Of a stretch of 64,000 bases of DNA, positions 9,707 through 43,653 are shown one piece after another. This DNA is from Octopus vulgaris (taxonomy: Eukaryota): positions 26,350,001-26,414,000 of the forward strand of contig OX597821.1 in NCBI GenBank assembly GCA_951406725.2, written 5' to 3'. The first letter of the stretch is position 1; the number at the start of each line of letters is the position of its first letter. Made by a program: the position numbers and the translations under genes. The notes under the pieces were generated by a model that was given only the letters and a program-made list of their open reading frames with translations, made no database searches and was not told the DNA's origin.

Positions 9707-10998
9707 TTGGGTTGGCAACTAAGTTCCCACCTTTTAAAAACTTTTGGAATTTATTGAGTTTTTAAATTTTGGAATCTATTTTTTTCGAGGATTCTATTTT
9801 TGAATCATTTTGGAATCTGTTTTTTTTTTAGTTAATTTTAGTCAATTTTTGTTTATTTTCAGATCATTAAAATGGAATGTCAAGTTAAGAAGAACGAGTA
9901 TTTTCGACACCACCTTCTTTTTGCTTTTCATCAAGGTTCTAAGGACGCAAAAGCTGCTCGCGACATTTGTGCTGTGTATGGAGAGGGTGCCATAGCTGAG
10001 AGAACCACTCGTGATTGCTATGCCAAGTTCAAAAATGGAAATTTTGACCTCAAAGACCTACCTCGTTCTCGCCGTCCAGTTGAGTTCGATAAAGAGCGAT
10101 TAAACCAACTTTTGCACGAAAATGCTCGTCAAACGACAAGGCAACTGGCAGAGAAAATGGAATGCTCCCACACTGCTGTAGAGAATCATTTTCACTCGAT
10201 GGGAAAGGTTCAGAGGTATGGAGCATGGGTTCCGCATGCTTTAAGTGACAACAGCAAAAATCAGTGGGCCACAATCTCCGCTGGTTTGCTTGCTTGTCAC
10301 CACTCAACTCATGGACACAAGCAATGATTTCTGTACCGAATCGTTACTGGCGACGAAAAATGGTGTCTGTACATCAATATGAAGCAGCGTAAGGAATGGC
10401 TTAGCCCCGGTAAACAAGCGAAACCACGTGTGAAACAAGATCTTCATCCGCGTAAAACGATGTCGTGCGTACGGTGGGACTGGGAAGGGATTATCCATTA
10501 TGAATTGTTTAATCGGAACCAAACAGTCAACATGGAACTTTATATTCAACAGATGGAACGACTCAACACAGCTATTCAAGAAAAAAGACCTAATCGCCAG
10601 CATGGAGTTCTTCTGCTGCACAACAACACCAGCCCTCATATCGCCAATATGACCAAGGAAGCCATTCAAACGCATGGCTGGGAAGTGCTGCCACACCCAC
10701 CGTACTCTCCTGATTTGGCACCAACGGATTTCCACCTCTTTCGATCTCTTTCAAATGGTATGCGCGGATTTTATTCAATACTGATGCAGAATTGAGAGCT
10801 TGGTTGGATCAATTTTTCGAGTCGAAATCGGGTGATTTCTACCAACGAGGTATGGAAAATCTTGTAGAACGTTGGAAAGAAGTTGTAAACATCAAGGGTG
10901 AATACATTATTGATTAATTAGTTGTTATTTTTTATATTAAACCTTTAAAAAAATATAAATCAAAAAAAAAAACGGCGAGAACTTAGTTACCAACCAAA
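9707..10998 (+). mobile_element. Full-length mariner transposon (mellifera-like TIR), TA target duplication
   Basis: TIRs ttgggttggcaactaagttc / gaacttagttaccaaccaaa, TA at 9705-9706 and 10999-11000, ~1.29 kb, transposase inside. Confidence 0.93.
9872..10917 (+). pseudogene. Mariner D,D34D transposase pseudogene
   Basis: HTH N-terminus, WVPHAL, TGDEKW and YSPDLAPTD motifs. In-frame TGA at 10325-10327, second catalytic D changed (HNNTS for HDNA), frameshift near 10770, C-terminus ...GEYIID* at 10917. Confidence 0.93.
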
Positions 10999-14109: not shown

Positions 14110-14688
14110 TATTGTTGAATGCATTTATGGATGGGTTAACAACCTATTAATGTGTTGACAGGGTTTATAAATGACTTAGCGCTCTGTTAGTGTTGATTGG
14201 GTTTATAGGAGGATTAACATCCCAGCAAATTGTTGATTGCGTTTGTATATGGTTTAACCCCCAAACATTTGTTGAATGGGTTAATAAATGGATAAACCCT
14301 CTAGCATAAAGTTAAACGGGTTCATAGATGGGCTAACACATTATTAAAGAGATGAATGGATTCACATATGGGACAATGCTCTATTAAAATGCTGGATGAG
14401 TTTATAGATCGGTACATAATATATAGTTGGATGGGCTTATAGATGGGTTAACACGCTTGTGTTAGTAGGGTTAATACTCTATTGGACTGTGGAATGGATT
14501 TATAGATAGGTAAATGCTCTAGTGAAGTGTTGAATGGATTTAGAAATTTAGCGCTGTGTTTCTATTATGTTGTGAATACTGTAGCATATTGATGAATGGG
14601 TCTATAGATAGGTTCACACTGCTAAAGTATTGGATGGGTTCAGAGGTTGGCTAATACTCTAGTATGTTGTTGAATGGGTTTATAGATG
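14110..14688 (+). repeat. Degenerate ~38-40-bp minisatellite (tgttgaatgggtttatagatgggttaacactc...)
   Basis: The motifs gaatgg(g)tttatagatg and gggttaac recur about 14 times at ~39-bp spacing. Confidence 0.75.
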
Positions 14689-15138
14689 TGGCCCAGCTGA
14701 GATGGGCAGGCCACGTCTCCCACATGTCCGACACTCGCATCCCAAAACAGCTCTTCTACGGTGAACTCAGCCAGGGCAAACGCAAAGTCGGAGGGCAGAA
14801 GAAGCGCTTCAAGGACAGTCTCAAAGTCTCTCTAAAGGACTTCTCCATCGGCACAGAGACTTGGGAGACACTTGCTGCCGACCGCTCATCCTGGCACAGC
14901 GCAATCACCACAGGAGCAAAGACAGCCGAGGAGAGACGGATTCAGTCAGTAGAACAGAAACGCCAGATGCGGAAAGCCAGAGCCACCTGCACCAATAGCA
15001 CAGCCCCTACCCACTTCAGCCCCCACCTGTGGGAGGGGCTTTCTTGCCCGGATAGGCCTCACCAGCCACCTCCGGCCTCATAGCAGCAATTCCACCAAAT
15101 GATGTCAATGGTCATCTTCGAACCCGAAGAACGAACAT
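14689..15138 (+). mobile_element. 5'-truncated RTE (BovB-like) LINE, 3' end
   Basis: AQLRWAGHV..M...RIPKQLFYGEL..GKR..GGQKKRFKDSLK, typical of the RTE ORF C-terminus, followed by 3' tail atggtcatcttcgaacccgaagaacgaaca. Confidence 0.88.
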
Positions 15139-23109: not shown

Positions 23110-25200
23110 TGATAAGAAATATGGTCGGCAAAGGAAGAACCTCAGAAAAGATCTATCAAAATAAACACAGCACTTGAACAACTCTAAACTCTTATAATAA
23201 CTGAAGAGTTCACCCAGGCACTGCAAAAATTAAGCAACTGGAACGCATCCGGGCACGACAAGATCCCCAACTTCTGGTATCCAACAGGAAAGCATAGAAT
23301 GCTGGCTGAGAAATTTAATAAAATATTAGCAGAGCCAGAGACAATGCCTGAATGGCTTATGGAAGGGATAATTATCCTAATTCTCAAATCCACTGAAATA
23401 GCAAACCCACAAAATTACGGACCGATAACTTGTCTCGTTACAATTTACAAAGCCTTTACTGCAAAAATATCGTAATGAATGGGCAAACATCTGGAAGAAA
23501 ACAACCTGTTTTTAGAAGAGCAGAAAGGATGCTGCAATAGCACATACGGCTGTAAAGATCAGCTACTGATCAATAAAGCCACAACTGAAGACAGTCGCAG
23601 AAAGAAGAAGGGTCTAAGTATGGCTTCGATCGATTATCGAAAGGCTTTTGATAGTATTCCCCACACATAGATCCTAGAAACACTACCCATGAACAAGGTA
23701 GCGCCAATAATCATAAAATATATAAAACATTCCATGAATGTTCCAGACAATCGAGGAACTCACAAAAACCAAAGCCATCCCCATTAGAAGAGACACACTC
23801 TCTCCACTCCTTTTCTGCTTGGCACTGACACCTTTATCTGACATACTAAACGGAACTGGATGTGGATATAAATGTTACGGCAAAACAATTAACCATCTCT
23901 TTTATATGGATGATCTAATACAGTATGCTACAAATGATAAACAACAGCAATCATTACTGCAGACTCTACATGGATTTACCAAAGAAATAAACATGAAATT
24001 TGGCTTAGAAAAATGTGCCAAAGCAACCTTGAAAAGAGGAAAACTAGTTAAGAGTAACAATACCACATTAGATAAAGCAAATAAAATAAGAGAATTAGAC
24101 CAAAGACAGACATACAAATTCTAAGGAATCAATGAACTAGATACGATACAATGCACACAAACGAAAGAGATGATAAGAAAGGAATATTATAGACGAGTTA
24201 GATTGTTACTGAAAACAGAGCTCAATGCGAAAAGCAAGATAATGTCAACACTCTAGCTGTCCCAGTTATAAGTTACAGTTACAATATTTTTAACTGGACT
24301 CTAAATGAACTAATCAAAATAGACAGGAAAACAAGCAAAATAATGACAGGATGTAGAATGTACCACTCAAAATCTTACATAGAAAGGCTATAAATACAAC
24401 GTATCGAAGGTGGTAGTGATCTTATACAGCTAGAAAATTATTACAGAATAACCACCATAGGACTACAGAAATGCCTATTTCAGAAGCAAGGAAAACTAAT
24501 ACAAATAGCCCCAAAATACGAAAAAAAAAACAAACTGTTTAATGAACAGTTCTTCAAAGAAGCTGACAAATACAGAAAAGAAGTCATAGTACCTAACAAG
24601 TATGAAGAAAAAGAAGAAACAAAAGCTGTAAAACAACTGAAATCCAAACTAAAACTGGAACAGCAACGTATCATGATAAAGCGATGTCAAGAAAAGCCAC
24701 TCCATGGCAAGTATTGGGTTAAACTAAACAGAAAAGAAATAGGCAAAGCAAAATACCAACAATGGCTGAGAAGCTCAGGACTCAAAGCAGAGACTGAAAG
24801 GATTTTTAATTGCAGCACGAAATCAAAGCCTTCTCACCAGAAATTACCAAAGACATGTAATGAAAAGAAATACAAGTAACTGCAGGATATGTGGATATGG
24901 AGAAGAAACAATAAGTCATATTGTTTCTGGTTGCCCAGCCCTGGCTAAGAAAGAATATATTCAGACACGAAAGAGTTGGGATCTACATACACTGGAAACT
25001 ATGCCAACACTTTGGAATAACAACAGAAAAATGATGGTATAGGCACACGCCGGAAAATGTTGCAGTAAATGAGAAAGCAACTACTCCCAGGGATATGTCA
25101 ATGCACACAGGTAGAGAAATTAAGGCCAATAGGCCGGATATAGTTGTCAGGGATCACCAAGGAAAAAATAAGCTTTCTAATCGATGTATCAATACCATCT
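23110..25200 (+). pseudogene. Decayed R4/Dong-clade non-LTR retrotransposon (RT, CCHC finger, restriction-like endonuclease)
   Basis: Frameshifted motifs NW.A.G.DKIPNFW, QKGC..GCKDQLLINK, IDYRKAFDSIPH, DTLSPLLFCLALTPLS, NHLFYMDD, KFGLEKCA, CRICG..EETISHIVSGC, RPDIVV..LIDVSIP. Adjacent to (TAA)n, the usual Dong target. Confidence 0.9.
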
Positions 25201-27445: not shown

Positions 27446-27476
<31 letters not shown>

Positions 27477-27480
27477 CAAC

Positions 27481-27528
27481 AAAACCTGTTACTCTGAGTT
27501 TCACGTTCCCGTTCGTCGGACAGTTTTT
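27481..27528 (-). ncRNA. Minimal type-I hammerhead ribozyme between two (TA)n tracts
   Basis: Minus strand: aaaaactgt-CCGACGA-acg ggaa cgt-GAAA-ctc a gag-TA-acaggtttt. All three stems pair; GUA cleavage triplet; U4C core variant. Confidence 0.75.
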
Positions 27529-27532
27529 GCTA

Positions 27533-27583
<51 letters not shown>

Positions 27584-27614
27584 CTTTTGTAAAACTGTGT
27601 TCTTAGATAAGGTA

Positions 27615-27935
27615 TGATATATCGATTAGTTCTGGAAATATGCTGTTACATATCGATTAGTTCTGGTAAGAGAAAAGAAGGTATCGATCACTTGTGGAAG
27701 TAGACGGGGGTTTATCAATCAGTTCTCATTATAGACTGTTATGTATCGATAAGTTCTGGTAACAGGTTGGACTGAATCGATCAGTTGTAGTTATGGACAG
27801 GGGTGTATGTATCGATTAGTTCTGGTAATAAGTTGTATTGTATCGTTCACTTATAGTAATCGGTTAAGATGTATCGATCTGTTCTGCTAATTGGCTAGGA
27901 TGTATCGATCTGTTCTGGTAATAGGTATAATATAT
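27615..27935 (+). repeat. Degenerate ~29-bp minisatellite (tatcgat(t/c)agttctggtaa...)
   Basis: The motif atcgat.agttctgg recurs about 11 times at ~29-32-bp spacing. Confidence 0.75.
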
Positions 27936-28804: not shown

Positions 28805-30050
28805 TTCATTCTTTTATTGTCCACAAGGGCTAATATAAAGATATATTAAAGGACATGAAACAAACATAAACGACAACACAAGACGATACAATGGATTTTC
28901 AAATCATGTACAGTAAATAACATGAAAATTAAACAAAAACAATATCCCAATAGGGGGAGGCGCTTTAAGGTCCTCGTAGAAAAACCCACAAAATCCACGG
29001 GTGCCTGATCAACAGGGAAAGAGCCCTTCCTTCATTTCTTCACGAGTGTACGCTCAGAATCGATCCTTTCACACTGATCATTCTTCAAACATTCACCCAC
29101 CTTTTAATAAACTTGCTACAAGACAACACTTCTTTCTCCACCCTCAACTTCCTTTGTAAGTGTAACTTGAAAAAGTCGATGAGGGCTTGGCCAAAGAGGA
29201 AAGTGTCTGACTTTAGCCCTTTCAGATGAGTCCACCATACTACCTCTTTCACTACAGCCACCAGACAAATAAAAATTGCCTGCCCCTCCTGGCCAAAGGA
29301 GGGCAGCGGGGCAATCTTCACTGGGGATTCAGCTGATTGCCGGATCCGTCCCACACGCGACAGCAGGTGTTCGACATAAACTCACAGGTCAGCAATGCTC
29401 GGGCACTGGACGAGTGCGTGCAGAACGGTTTCGTCGCTTTGCGCACACCTTGAGCAGGCCCGGCTGATGGCACTTCCGTGCCTGTAAAGCTTATCCGAAA
29501 CGGACAACGTCCCTCGGTAGCACTGCCAGACAATGGATTTCTGGAAATTGTTCATAGGCCCAGGCCCGAAAGTTCTCCGAAAGAGACCGGCGTGTTTATC
29601 TTCCTCGACGCCCAGAGTTTCCCCAAGAACGTCGTCGCACTTTCCCTCCACTAGCCCTCTATAGAACGCTAAAGTGAAATTACTACCGACTGCATTGCTC
29701 GCCTGGCGGAGGGCTGTGAGCGTTTGACGGCACTCTAGGTGCCAAGCGCCCTCCTCGGTCTACGCCTAATCCAGGTTTACAGCTCAGTCAAAGAGACGAG
29801 CTGTAGAAAAGTGAGTCGGACAAACAGCGACTACACCTGCTCACCGTAAAGGAAACGCTTGAGATGCTGTAGCTTGAGCGCATGTCTGCGCATCAGCAAC
29901 CACAGCATGTCCGGCCCTCCATTCAGCGGCTGTTGACAGCACATGGAGGCCCTGACCTGTAGAAGGCACCCCTTCCACAGAAAGCAGACGAGTAAGTGCA
30001 CCAGCTTGGTCAACCAGCAAACGGTGCAAGCGGCAATAGATGACGGATGC
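28805..30050 (-). pseudogene. 5'-truncated Tx1/L1-clade LINE (ORF2 C-terminal zinc finger and 3' UTR)
   Basis: FLWKG...C.QPL.GG..M...RRHAL.L.HL; WQCYRGTL.V.DKL...C.RC....ETVLHALVQCP (zf-RVT); 3' end ...gcccttgtggacaataaaagaatgaa running into (TTA)n. Confidence 0.8.
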
Positions 30051-37720: not shown

Positions 37721-37770
37721 TTCTGTCCGATGAGCCAGTTAGATACCAGAAAATTTCCAGAGTAACAGAG
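37721..37770 (+). ncRNA. Degenerate hammerhead ribozyme, same design as 27481-27528
   Basis: ttctgt-CCGATGA-...-GAAA-...cagag-TA-acagag. Stem I is intact; stem II is decayed. Confidence 0.5.
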
Positions 37771-39384: not shown

Positions 39385-40237
39385 TCATCAACATCATCAT
39401 TGTTCGACCGTGGTCGAGACAATGGAATTTACCATGCTACGCCAGACTTCACGGTCCATCATGGCATTACGGAGGTCCTGTTGCTGGATGCCTGTATCCC
39501 TGGAGATTACATCAGGGTAGGAGAGTGTGCGCCCTCTGGTATTGCGAGTAGATGGCTTCCAGAGGAGAAGAGCAGAAATTACCTCTTTTTCAGCTCTACA
39601 ACAACGTCCAGCAAACTGGACTCTCTTACCTTTCACAAGAGATGATACAGGTGGTAGTTTCCCATATATTTGCATTTTGGTTGGATGGCGCTTCCACGAG
39701 AGATTTTGAGCTCTCATAAGGAGGCGAGTGTAGGTTCCATCCAACCGCCTCTCAAGCTTCTTTGATAACGTCCAGGTTTCTGAGCCATAGAGTAGAATTG
39801 GTTCAACTGTGGCTTTGAAGATTTCAATTTTGAAGTCTCTACTTAGATTTGATGACCAGATCTTATGCATATCATTACAGGCTGACCAGGCCATACCCTT
39901 TCTAGTTAGAAAGTCTTTTCCAGATGATGATATGTATGACCCAAGATATTTGTAATCAGAAACCATATTTAAGGGCGCATTGTTGAGAGTATGGATGATG
40001 CAATCACTGTTGGACAGGCACTTGTTTATGTATTCAGTCTTGGCCTCATTGAGGTAAAGACCTACACAATTTGAGGCTTGTTCAAGAGATTGTAAAAGAG
40101 ACTGGGCATTGGAGAGAGAATCACTGATAAGAGCGATGTCGTCAGCAAAGTCAGTGTCTGTCAAGTACTCAGCTGGGTGTCTGGAACTTCTTCTTGGTTT
40201 TATTTCAAAGCCCTTGCCAGAGATGGTATCAACTGAC
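39385..40237 (-). mobile_element. Recent 5'-truncated RTE-clade LINE with uninterrupted RT C-terminal frame and 12-bp TSD
   Basis: ORF 39397-40239 contains DFADDIAL, YKYLGS and LLYGSETW, with no stops over 280 codons. (TGA)n tail; TSD atttactgtaca at 39373-39384 and 40238-40249. Confidence 0.92.
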
Positions 40238-40642
40238 ATTTACTGTACAAACAACTTACATTTTTGGAATCGCATTTATTTAGAAATATTTCTAAATGTC
40301 TAAAATATTGTGTTTAACAAAAGCGAAAATAGAAACGTTTACTGTAAAAAAAAATCGTATGTTTTCGTTGTGAAGTCACTGTGTCTAATCGAAATGTAAG
40401 AGTTTGTTCCCTTTCAGGGTTAAGATTATTTTCAGAATATTTTCCCAATATACACCGTTTTGGGAATTTATACCCCGGAAACATCTAATATCTTATGAAC
40501 CACTTGTCCGATTTACGCGAAACTTGTTCTATTCCGTTCGTATTAACATTTCAGGGTAACTTAATTCATAATATTTTCCCATTATGCGCCAGTTTGGGTG
40601 GGTAGCATTGCAAGCAAGTAAGTTTCAAGCTGACTTTTAATG

Positions 40643-41091: not shown

Positions 41092-43653
41092 AATGGAGAG
41101 AATTAATATCGACGCATCCGTTGAAGATTTTCGAATACCGCCAAAGAAAGAATATATTAAAGATCTTTTCTTCAAAGTCAACATCTAGATTGAGATGACC
41201 GGCGTACTTCCATGACAAGAAAGAGGAAAACCCTAACAACGCAACAGATGAACAGATATAGGGATTTTTTAAAACGAGGAAATATCCACCACCAAACCTA
41301 CATCGAGCTGACTTTGAAGATGAATGATGGAATATTGTTAGGAATATTGAATTCTGTTAACTCTCACTAAGAAGAAATAAGCACATCCAGAAACTATACT
41401 CCCTAACTAAGGATCTCAAGTAAAAATAAGGAATTTTAGTACACGCGGATAAAACAGGTAACTTGCATCATTTAAAAACTTAATCTGCAAGACAAAGGTA
41501 TTATAAAAAATATTATTTAGCAGATAAAACTGAACCTTACGAGCCTAAAACCCCTAGAATTAATCATAAGGACCATAATCTTAACTTTTACACTAACCCT
41601 ACTGTTAAACTCATTTGTCCTTAAGCTTAAACTATGGTCTAGTTCGTATGACTGGTTTTCTAAAATCCTAGATAAAAATAAGACAAGATTCATGCAAATC
41701 GACATATCTAACTATTACGTTTCAATTAATCTTATCCTCTTAAATCAGATGCTTATGTTTGCTATGAAAAACTCTTTGTAGACATTATTTTAGCGGTTAG
41801 GAAATCAATTATAAAATTTGAGGGAAAGTACTGGGCGAGAAAGTATAGACCAGAGATGTTCGATATAACTATGGGATCCACAGACTCTGCACAAGTAGCA
41901 GACTATATAGGGATGATGCACTTTTCACCGTTTAATCCCTCAAACCGGGACAGAAAAATATAGGAAAAAAATGTTTAGGTTCTTTAAAAACACAGGACTC
42001 TCAGTATTTATAGAAGGGGAATATAACTAAGTTAACTTTTTTGATGTTAATTTAGATCTAAGTACAGGTATACATAGGCCTTATCATAAACCTAATACAA
42101 ACCCTAGATACATTCATAAAAATAACATCCACCCAAAAAGTATAATCGGATCAATAATAGAAAATATATCAATCCAAATCAACAAACTCTCAGCGAACGA
42201 GGAAGTATTTAAACTTAATGAAGACTTTTATGATTTTGCATTAGAGAAAGCAGGATATAGAGAAAAATTAAAATTCCTTAACGGTAGTAATAGTACAAAT
42301 AGTATAAGTAGCGAGATGGACCATACTATCAATAATCATGATAGTAAGGTTAATATGGAGAGCACCACTAATCAAATAGAACAGACAGTAAGAAGAGTAA
42401 AGGATAAGAAATCTGTTCATTTAGAATATAACAATAGAGTTCTTAGAAACAAAATGAAGAATACAAATTTACTTGAATATGTGCAAATAAAGTACAAAGT
42501 AGCTTAGAGACCTACTAAGAGGTCCTATTCAGATAGTGTAGGTAAAGAATACATAAACTCTATAAATAGTAATATATACACGATTGACAAATATAATGTC
42601 AAATATAACAGCAAATGTCGTAATAAGAACCAGATAAGGAGATTACACACATTTACAAAAAGCTTAACAAGAAATAGAAATACATATCTTAGTAACATGG
42701 ATACCTCTAGCTATATCGAATGGTATATAATTCCCTTCGGGAAACAAATAATTTCCAATATACCGAAATTGTTTTATTCGGCATTGACTAAACATCTTCC
42801 AAAAAGCAGTAAATACTGCAGGGTTTTTAATAAAAAATCAGATTAGATTAGCTTTCTGTAATAGCAAAAATCTAGCACAAATTATAGCTGCACACAACGA
42901 TAGCAAATTTAAAGGTTTCCATATGAGTTGTAGCAATAATATAATAGTAACCAGAATTATAATTATAGATCAATAAATAGCAACAATGTCAACATGAGCG
43001 GACAAACCGTAGGTAACATAGCTGGGTACCAGGATTGAAACTATGGTTTGACAATCAATGGAGTTGAAGAGACTCGAGGGAGCTCCACAGTTGGCCTGGA
43101 AGTAGTGAATATGAAACCTAGAGGGCAAAGTACTCGGAGTGTTGTCTCTGTGGAGAGGACTAATAGCATAGAAGATAGACAGGAGAATACAAAAATCACA
43201 TCTAGAATAGGTGAAGTGGATGATAGTGATGGAAGTACTAGAACTCTTAGTTGCGATCGTGCGAAGTACAGGGTCTGTTCGCTTGGCTCTGATTGTAAAC
43301 ACAAAAATATTGTATACAGATGTAAGATTGCCTCAGAGAATAGAGAATATTTCTATATAAGAGCTAGCACGTTATATTTAAGTTCGTTTAGAAGTAGGGA
43401 CAAAATCAATACTACCAGCCTTAGTAAGCTTATTTGGGCACTTAAAGATGGTAACAAAGTATTTTCGATTGCTTGGAGAATTATTAGTAAAGCAAAACCT
43501 TAAAGAATAGGCGATAATAAATGTAATGTTTGTGTAGAGAAAATGTACTAAATTTTCTTTTCTAAATATACTATTATAAACATTAGACAGGAACAGACTA
43601 TGAGATGTCCACATTGGATTAAATATACGTTTAAACGATTTAAAGAAACATAA
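41092..43653 (+). pseudogene. Near full-length decayed Penelope-like element, Naiad-type (RT and C-terminal GIY-YIG endonuclease)
   Basis: Frameshifted motifs F.IPPKKEYIK.L, YG.FKTRK.PPP, FDITMGSTDSAQV, NFFDVNLDL.TG..RPYHKPN, ALEKAGY, WYIIPF, C...C.L...C..KNIVY, SF......TSLSKLIWALKD...IAW.II, C.VC.EK, CPH match my recollection of the Naiad/Chlamys PLE consensus. Confidence 0.82.

What the first reader, a model, noticed from the sequence alone, without database searches (positions are those of the whole stretch)
27474..27534. A ~60-bp insertion that is essentially only a hammerhead ribozyme
Between two pure (TA)n runs the minus strand reads aaaaactgt CCGACGA acg-ggaa-cgt GAAA ctc-a-gag TA acaggtttt. 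Stems I, II and III all pair and the triplet is GUA. The 1-nt loop III implies dimeric folding or an opened stem. The U4-to-C core change recurs in the related copy at 37721 (ctgt CCGATGA...cagag TA acag), so it looks like a family feature rather than decay. It may be an extreme minimal mobile unit or a precisely truncated PLE end.
Basis: partly seen in the sequence, partly recalled or inferred. Interest (0 to 1): 0.75.

Follow-up and report, generated by a model that had tools for sequence, protein, structure and literature searches.

The report
Clipped Penelope end with weakened hammerhead
This 64-base insertion is the clipped front end of a Penelope-like jumping gene with thousands of copies, not an independent mini-element; it was likely copied from an uncut RNA, and its altered, likely weakened ribozyme core marks an older sub-lineage that left mostly short copies.

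Summary
The hammerhead-shaped motif is real, but it is not a 60-bp mobile unit. It is positions +1 to +64 of the terminal repeat of a 3.35-kb Hydra-type Penelope-like retrotransposon that inserts into (TA)n. Normal copies end at +84 or +155; this 3' end occurs 4 times in the genome.

U4C is a lineage trait: about 1,800 copies, one RT clade, older than the roughly 3,400 canonical CUGA copies. The site at 37721 is not a valid second copy.

The new part is in the boundaries. Of 100 copies, 39 stop at 0..+14, 1 stops in -15..-1 and 1 at the cut site. Of 64 ORF-spanning copies that reach +14, none stops at 0..+14. This points to two templates: an uncut RNA starting at +1 for short copies, and a likely circular (or multimeric) RNA for long ones. 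U4C copies are rarely long (1 of 30 against 18 of 40), but age confounds this. Cleavage is untested.

Earlier notes of this scan found Hydra hammerhead ends and altered cores on other DNA.

The parts
27446..27473 (.). (TA)n run at the element's 3' junction (target site; its last 1-3 bases are shared with the element)
   Evidence: sequence
27473..27536 (-). Positions +1 (27536) to +64 (27473) of the terminal repeat of a Hydra-type PLE, C4 lineage; one arm only, about 20 nt short of the usual +84 end
27486..27523 (-). Minimal type I hammerhead motif (+14..+51)
   Evidence: layout as in Craig et al. File S2
27513..27519 (-). Core strand CCGACGA: U4C at 27518, C at the variable position 7
27503..27512 (-). 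Stem II: 3 bp closed by a GGAA (GNRA) loop; the canonical lineage has 2 bp and GCAA
27491..27499 (-). Stem III strand ACTCAGAGT, self-complementary around a central A; predicted to pair with a second copy (8 bp, one A-A mismatch)
27489..27490 (-). Predicted cleavage site after GUA (+47/+48); the insertion runs through it intact
   Evidence: sequence; hammerhead numbering recalled; for the lack of copy ends here
27535..27579 (.). (TA)n run at the element's 5' junction (its first 2 bases are shared with the element)

Best explanation
The insertion is one short arm of a Hydra-type Penelope-like retrotransposon sitting in a TA microsatellite, likely made when the element's reverse transcriptase started near the front of an uncut RNA and ran off that RNA's first base.

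Shown: the piece equals +1..+64 of the terminal repeat of a 3.35-kb RT/GIY-YIG element. Family copies end 3' at +84 or +155, usually one arm of each in an inverted pair. Short copies stop 5' at a wall at 0..+14. Copies run through the cleavage site. ORF-spanning copies ignore the wall. U4C marks one older lineage with few long copies.

Inferred: +1 is the transcript start of an internal promoter. The endonuclease nicks (TA)n and the nick primes cDNA at +84 or +155. A linear uncut RNA gives hammerhead-sized copies. Long and more-than-unit copies come from a template with no end at +1, most likely a circle made by hammerhead cleavage at both repeats and ligation (about 50%; upstream read-through multimers about 30%; template jumping about 20%). 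U4C likely slows cleavage and shifts output to short copies. The +64 end is a rare mis-priming or a later slippage deletion at a TAT microhomology. The window copy is likely inert: it lacks both start sites, the bases upstream of +1 and a partner hammerhead in cis.
For: [quoted passage not shown] The exact CCGACGA motif lies at the 3' end of elements with an 88-89% identical ORF.

3' ends: 58 of 100 at +84 and 42 at +155; 29 of 30 inverted pairs have one of each. This resembles the two internal RT start sites shown in vitro for the anole PLE (PMC11167929).

5' wall: of the first 100 of 7,848 anchored copies, 39 end at 0..+14 (29 at 0..+6), 1 at -15..-1, 29 further upstream, 28 at +15..+44 and 3 at +45..+52, of which 1 is at the cut site. 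29 of the first 30 exact CCGACGA matches end at 0..+14. A better TA microhomology and palindrome at about -15..-8 is hardly used, so microhomology does not make the wall.

All 98 repeat-to-ORF junction copies were examined. Of 76 long ones, 64 reach +14 and 0 stop at 0..+14 (against 39 of 69; Fisher p=5e-15). Of 22 short ones that end inside the ORF start, 5 stop at 0..+14; these can only come from the front of the RNA. Second-round ends are scattered, and 6 of 30 run at least 1.3 kb upstream. The two repeats of one element are as close as or closer than any other copy in 13 of 20 elements, with no fixed 5'-versus-3' substitution.

U4C: 91 C4, 5 U4 and 4 A5 among the first 100 of 2,020; the minor classes fit CpG decay. 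C4-linked RTs form one clade (support 0.994). Copies extending beyond -145: 18 of 40 U4, 1 of 30 C4. Long junction copies with a readable core: 62 U4, 1 C4-lineage. U4C is reported to lower activity considerably in vitro in a viroid (PMC3088659 passage).
Against: No RNA data show a start at +1, a circle or cleavage; only assembled contigs were available. In the anole PLE, hammerhead mutants did not change insertion in vitro and no RNA-seq reads ended at the cut site, which argues against a needed cleavage step. +1 also pairs with +63 at the base of a predicted extended helix I, so the wall could be a trimmed or processed end instead of a transcript start. 5 of the 64 long copies stop at -3..-12, just upstream of the wall.

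The U4C effect rests on one lineage against one. That lineage is older (tail median pairwise difference 4.2% against 1.4%; RT 4.7% against 2.2%) and has an internal TA run at about -121..-135 where several copies stop. Passing the wall itself differs only weakly in the unbiased sample (20 of 40 against 8 of 30, p=0.054). Arms of one insertion are not independent, and the 100-copy sample comes from the first 35 Mb of one contig. The C4 lineage amplified through at least five haplotypes, so it did make masters. In 7 of 20 elements a copy from another element was closer than the partner repeat; one of these has a truncated second copy.
Confidence: 0.72

Rival explanations
1. One linear RNA does everything: the short cDNA made at the front of the RNA jumps to the homologous 3' repeat, like retroviral strong-stop transfer, and short copies are failed jumps. 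The hammerhead need not cut, and U4C is neutral drift.
For: The two repeats of an element are near-identical and share private variants, as a jump also predicts. Cleavage was not needed in vitro in the anole PLE. Copy ends are rare at the cut site.
Against: A cDNA that reaches +1 a second time should fail about as often as the first time (39 of 69), yet 0 of 64 long copies stop there.
Confidence: 0.15
2. Long copies come from read-through transcripts that start upstream of tandem masters, for example in host introns, and short copies from the internal promoter. The C4 lineage has few long copies only because it is older or lost its masters.
For: It explains the missing wall in long copies without a circle. 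A three-repeat array exists (L374). The C4 lineage is older, and none of the 8 long C4-linked loci I examined had a full-length open frame.
Against: Junction copies are few (98 exact matches). Second-round ends are scattered, with only a small cluster near -53. No fixed differences between 5' and 3' repeats have built up. Host-flank transduction was not looked for.
Confidence: 0.2
3. The C4 short copies are a SINE-like non-autonomous family of about 155 nt (not 60 nt) that re-amplifies from its own internal promoter using the protein of the canonical lineage.
For: 29 of 30 exact CCGACGA copies are short, and C4-linked RT copies are few.
Against: Both main C4 haplotypes are also found joined to ORFs. 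The canonical lineage makes the same short copies at the same wall. 8 of 30 C4 copies pass the wall.
Confidence: 0.1
4. The 60-mer is itself a minimal mobile ribozyme unit.
For: Its ends coincide with the predicted extended helix I (+1 pairs with +63). Three other copies share the 3' end.
Against: 4 such 3' ends against 7,848 copies reaching +84. The other three belong to two-arm insertions, one of them with the canonical core.
Confidence: 0.02

Closest known systems
Hydra clade of C-terminal EN+ Penelope-like elements (Craig et al. 2021, PMC8557442), including Hydra-1_Obim and Hydra-2_Amil
   Same: RWK and DKT motifs, CxCX5C linker, CxxC and CxH near the C terminus, (TA)n target, 3' hammerhead. 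Hydra-2_aMil has the same CTGT/ACAG stem I, a 1-nt loop III and GUA; Penelope-3_HM has the same actc-a-gagt stem III.
   Different: All 26 Hydra rows of File S2 have CUGA; here a lineage of about 1,800 copies has CCGA. Stem II is only 2-3 bp. The unit is 3.35-3.46 kb against 'generally <3 kb'. By eye it is a different family from Hydra-1_Obim (different hammerhead; proteins not aligned).
Minimal hammerheads of metazoan PLEs (Cervera and de la Pena 2014, PMC4209133)
   Same: Type I, palindromic tiny helix III, predicted dimer, most motifs as single truncated copies; that paper proposes cleavage, circularisation and more-than-unit reverse transcription.
   Different: The core variant named in the parts I read is U3-A8, not U4C, and I saw no boundary statistics there separating short from long copies.
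Poseidon PLE of Anolis, PAc (Frangieh et al. 2024, PMC11167929)
   Same: Two internal RT start sites that define a 'tail', both target strands primed, AT-rich target, uncut RNA as insertion template.
   Different: Different clade; the tail is 71 nt here; the start sites lie upstream of the ORF; that work did not address how long copies arise.
Natural U4C hammerhead of a viroid (cited in Perreault et al. 2011, PMC3088659)
   Same: Same core change; reported as much slower in vitro yet compatible with infectivity.
   Different: A single viroid variant, not a transposon lineage. I did not read the primary paper.
Animal non-LTR retrozymes (Li et al. 2026, 10.64898/2026.07.22.740005)
   Same: Non-coding, hammerhead-bearing, PLE-derived.
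   Different: Retrozymes are head-to-tail tandems with at least two intact hammerheads; this is a single sub-unit fragment, and its relatives are mostly inverted pairs.

Membership tests
Type I minimal hammerhead | Core CUGANGA ... GAAA ... UH | tested here: not met
   U4 is C; all other core bases are present. The sister lineage has CUGAUGA.
Type I minimal hammerhead | Three helices around the core | tested here: inconclusive
   Pairing is possible, but the monomer fold is 2.1 kcal/mol above the MFE; stem III is stable only as a dimer.
Type I minimal hammerhead | Self-cleavage after UH | not testable with these tools
   No assay; 1 of 100 copies begins at the cut site.
Hydra-clade PLE | Single ORF with RT and C-terminal GIY-YIG endonuclease | tested here: met
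   727-aa frame with YRDD at 360 and VY...YTG at 598. Pfam gave no hit, so this rests on motifs and on comparison by eye.
Hydra-clade PLE | RWK motif and DKT in place of DKG | tested here: met
   RWK at 53, DKT at 129; definition.
Hydra-clade PLE | CxCX5C linker; CxxC and CxH near the C terminus | tested here: met
   CNCKDESSC in the C4-linked L171; the second C is F in L091; CRLC and CRH present.
Hydra-clade PLE | (TA)n insertion, pseudo-LTRs, inverted truncated arm, tail | tested here: met
Hydra-clade PLE | Generally shorter than 3 kb | tested here: not met
   3,350-3,462 bp; a tendency in the paper, not a strict criterion.
Hydra-clade PLE | RT phylogeny inside Hydra; no IFD, no CCHH motif | not tested
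   No tree with reference PLE proteins was built.
Non-LTR retrozyme | At least two head-to-tail units with complete hammerheads | tested here: not met
   Single fragment.
Independent 60-bp mobile unit | Many copies sharing both ends | tested here: not met
   4 copies share the 3' end; only the window copy has both ends.

The most novel reading that the evidence does not exclude
Hammerhead-only insertions are the footprint of uncut linear PLE transcripts, and full-length PLE copies require a hammerhead-made RNA circle. The U4C lineage is then a natural partial loss-of-function experiment: weaker cleavage, fewer circles, a flood of short copies and eventual loss of masters. This would give the PLE hammerhead a concrete job, that of a switch between abortive and productive templates.
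Probability: 0.3. Interest if true: 0.75.

Novelty: new variant of a known kind. Interest (0 to 1): 0.42.

Why it matters
The function of the hammerhead in endonuclease-bearing PLEs is called unclear in the literature (PMC8557442), and the one in vitro system found cleavage dispensable (PMC11167929). This family gives countable genomic evidence that short and long copies use different templates, plus a matched natural pair of cores (U4 and C4) in the same terminal repeat. That makes the 2014 circle proposal directly testable. The 64-bp insertion itself is an ordinary, likely inert fragment.

Tried and rejected
Rfam scan: only microsatellite-driven miRNA matches and similar among the rows shown. 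Fold stability against shuffles: not significant. Pfam on the parent ORF: no family. The 37721 site as a second copy: rejected. 5' wall as a microhomology artefact: rejected, because the TA-rich palindrome at about -15..-8 is hardly used. 5' wall as a splice acceptor (the AG at +6/+7, by analogy with the D. virilis intron): rejected, because copies keep +1..+7 and do not continue into a shared upstream exon. Tandems formed by a new copy annealing to an older neighbour: unlikely, because their 5' ends would then show the wall. Cleaved linear RNA as template: little support (1 of 100; 1 of 76). Expression: no RNA holder listed; only contigs could be laid. Empty-site check in other runs: no contig crossed the TA runs, no result. 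Sequence look-up in earlier findings: nothing. The first tail-divergence run matched only 2 copies and was redone (medians used because of outliers). One search had a 5-nt offset and was redone. The lineage labels were imperfect, so re-scored by core; 30 of 100 copies had no scorable core and were left out of that contrast.

Full report
1. Observation. The minus strand at 27523-27486 reads as a type I hammerhead with core CCGACGA, a 3-bp stem II with a GGAA loop, GAAA, the self-complementary strand CTC-A-GAG, the triplet GUA and a 4-bp stem I. It sits between TA runs. Stem I is interrupted by an A-G mismatch before up to 8 further pairs. The monomer fold is unfavourable (probability 0.0006), and stem III pairs between two copies at -7.4 kcal/mol. 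The fold is no more stable than shuffles, and no hammerhead family was among the 150 Rfam rows shown of 239. Its reality rests on the genome: 410 exact copies of the 38-mer against 0 reversed controls. The look-alike at 37723-37768 has no foldable stem II and no other copy by two searches.

2. What it belongs to. The genome is 2.8 Gb in 227 contigs; an octopus is likely, by inference from size, repeats and earlier notes. Other copies continue on both sides. Upstream they run through about 1 kb of 3' UTR into an ORF. A tandem locus gives a 3,352-bp unit with a 727-aa open frame carrying RWK, DKT, YRDD, a cysteine linker, a GIY-YIG-like motif, CxxC and CxH. These are the diagnostic features of the Hydra clade (PMC8557442 section 11). 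Numbering the A of ATTCTAG as +1, the window holds +1 (27536) to +64 (27473). In the published Hydra hammerhead table, 17 of 26 rows have a 1-nt loop III and all 26 have CUGA. The odd stem III is therefore a clade feature; U4C is not in that table.

3. Ends of copies. I took the first 100 of 7,848 matches to an anchor downstream of the cut site. Their 3' ends are +84 (58) or +155 (42), and 29 of 30 inverted pairs have one of each. This fits two internal RT start sites and priming from both target strands, as shown in vitro for the anole element (PMC11167929). Their 5' ends: 39 at 0..+14, 1 at -15..-1, 29 further upstream, 28 at +15..+44, 3 at +45..+52 (1 at the cut site). The window copy starts exactly at +1. 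Its 3' end is non-standard: 4 matches in the genome. Two of the other three have an opposite arm of the long-tail type, so +64 stands in for +84 there. Mis-priming and later slippage deletion cannot be told apart, and no run bridged the site.

4. Two templates. I examined all 98 exact matches to the repeat-to-ORF junction. 76 continue at least 450 nt into the body. Of these, 64 reach +14 and none stops at 0..+14 (59 stop upstream of -15 and 5 at -3..-12); 1 stops at +47 and 11 beyond +52. Among the 22 short ones, which end at +170..+503, 5 stop at 0..+14. Second-round ends are scattered, and 6 of the first 30 run at least 1.3 kb upstream. In 20 elements with two repeats (20 loci chosen for long second rounds plus L092; one had a single repeat), the partner repeat was as close as or closer than any other copy in 13. 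Divergent elements pair their own repeats in the tree, and no substitution is fixed between 5' and 3' repeats. Inference: short copies come from an RNA whose 5' end is +1 and which was not cut, since the cDNA crosses the cut site. Long copies come from a template with no end at +1. The bases around +1 fit the initiator consensus YYANWYY (recalled), and D. virilis Penelope has an internal promoter in its repeat (PMC2377424 passages). An AATAAA at +78..+83 could end linear transcripts before the 3' start sites (inference, untested). A circle from cleavage at both hammerheads, proposed in PMC4209133, fits best; upstream read-through multimers and template jumping remain possible.

5. U4C. The canonical haplotype has 3,422 exact matches. 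A pattern for the other background has 2,020; of the first 100, 91 have C4, 5 U4 and 4 A5 (counted by hand), so about 1,800 carry C4, in at least five haplotypes. The other changes in the motif keep or improve the fold: the GNRA loop is kept, stem II gains a pair in some haplotypes, and position 7 varies. C4 motifs are joined to ORFs 88-89% identical to the canonical protein. Seven C4-linked RT segments form one clade against eight U4-linked ones, and are more diverged (4.7% against 2.2%; tails 4.2% against 1.4%). None of the 8 long C4-linked loci examined had a full-length open frame. Both letters at position 4 appear in contigs of runs under four organism labels, a weak hint that the variant is old. 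C4 copies are rarely long: 1 of 30 against 18 of 40 beyond -145; 15 of the first 100 of 1,851 wall-passing copies (roughly 15% against 46% of each lineage, from unlike patterns); 1 against 62 among long junction copies. Against a causal reading: one lineage pair, greater age, an internal TA run, non-independent arms, partly overlapping samples, and p=0.054 for passing the wall in the unbiased sample.

6. Literature seen. PMC8557442: passages, section 11, supplement passages and part 2 of 59. PMC4209133: parts 1-2 of 4, supplements not seen. PMC11167929: parts 1-2 of 4; its Fig. S2 on genomic ends was not seen and may bear on the wall. PMC3088659 and PMC2377424: passages. 10.64898/2026.07.22.740005: part 1 of 5; its supplements are closed. 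Nine searches listed no paper whose title or abstract start describes a U4C PLE lineage or this short-versus-long boundary contrast; 'U4C' with hammerhead gave only PMC3088659. The library lacks most subscription journals.

7. Verdict. The insertion is a fragment of a known kind of element. The U4C lineage and the boundary statistics are a new variant and a testable lead on what PLE hammerheads do. Interest 0.42.

Noticed in passing
window 41754-43626 (+): Decayed PLE with RT and GIY-YIG fragments 31-36% identical to the parent ORF; a different, older family.
   Followed up: partly
window 37723-37768 (+): Hammerhead-like outer words with a CCGA core but no foldable stem II; single copy by two searches; possibly an old relic of another family.
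   Followed up: yes
window 9842-10795 (+): Two adjacent frames resembling a mariner transposase split by a frameshift (motifs recalled).
   Followed up: no
window 14655-15083 (-), 23738-24879 (+), 29382-29759 (-), 39397-40239 (-): Fragments resembling non-LTR retrotransposon ORFs (resemblance recalled, not searched).
   Followed up: no
window 27600-27920: Degenerate tandem repeat of about 31 bp next to the insertion.
   Followed up: no
L251 and L255 (G000:C17, 22.36-22.39 Mb): Tandem ORF copies in which the ORF end joins +68 directly, so the 3' UTR and the whole hammerhead are missing; a local hammerhead-less array.
   Followed up: partly
short junction copies among L263-L360: Minor 3' ends cluster at about +210..+265 inside the ORF start, suggesting further weak RT start sites.
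   Followed up: partly
long junction copies L285, L325, L330, L337, L347, L349, L359: Seven long copies have 5' ends at +78..+86, at the first RT start site and a small hairpin; unexplained.
   Followed up: partly
L181 and L247: Two C4 hammerheads head to tail 140 nt apart; two like two-arm insertions 1,332 bp apart.
   Followed up: no
L091, L092, L260: The canonical lineage has copies with full or nearly full open frames (725-727 aa) and near-identical repeats, so it is young.
   Followed up: partly
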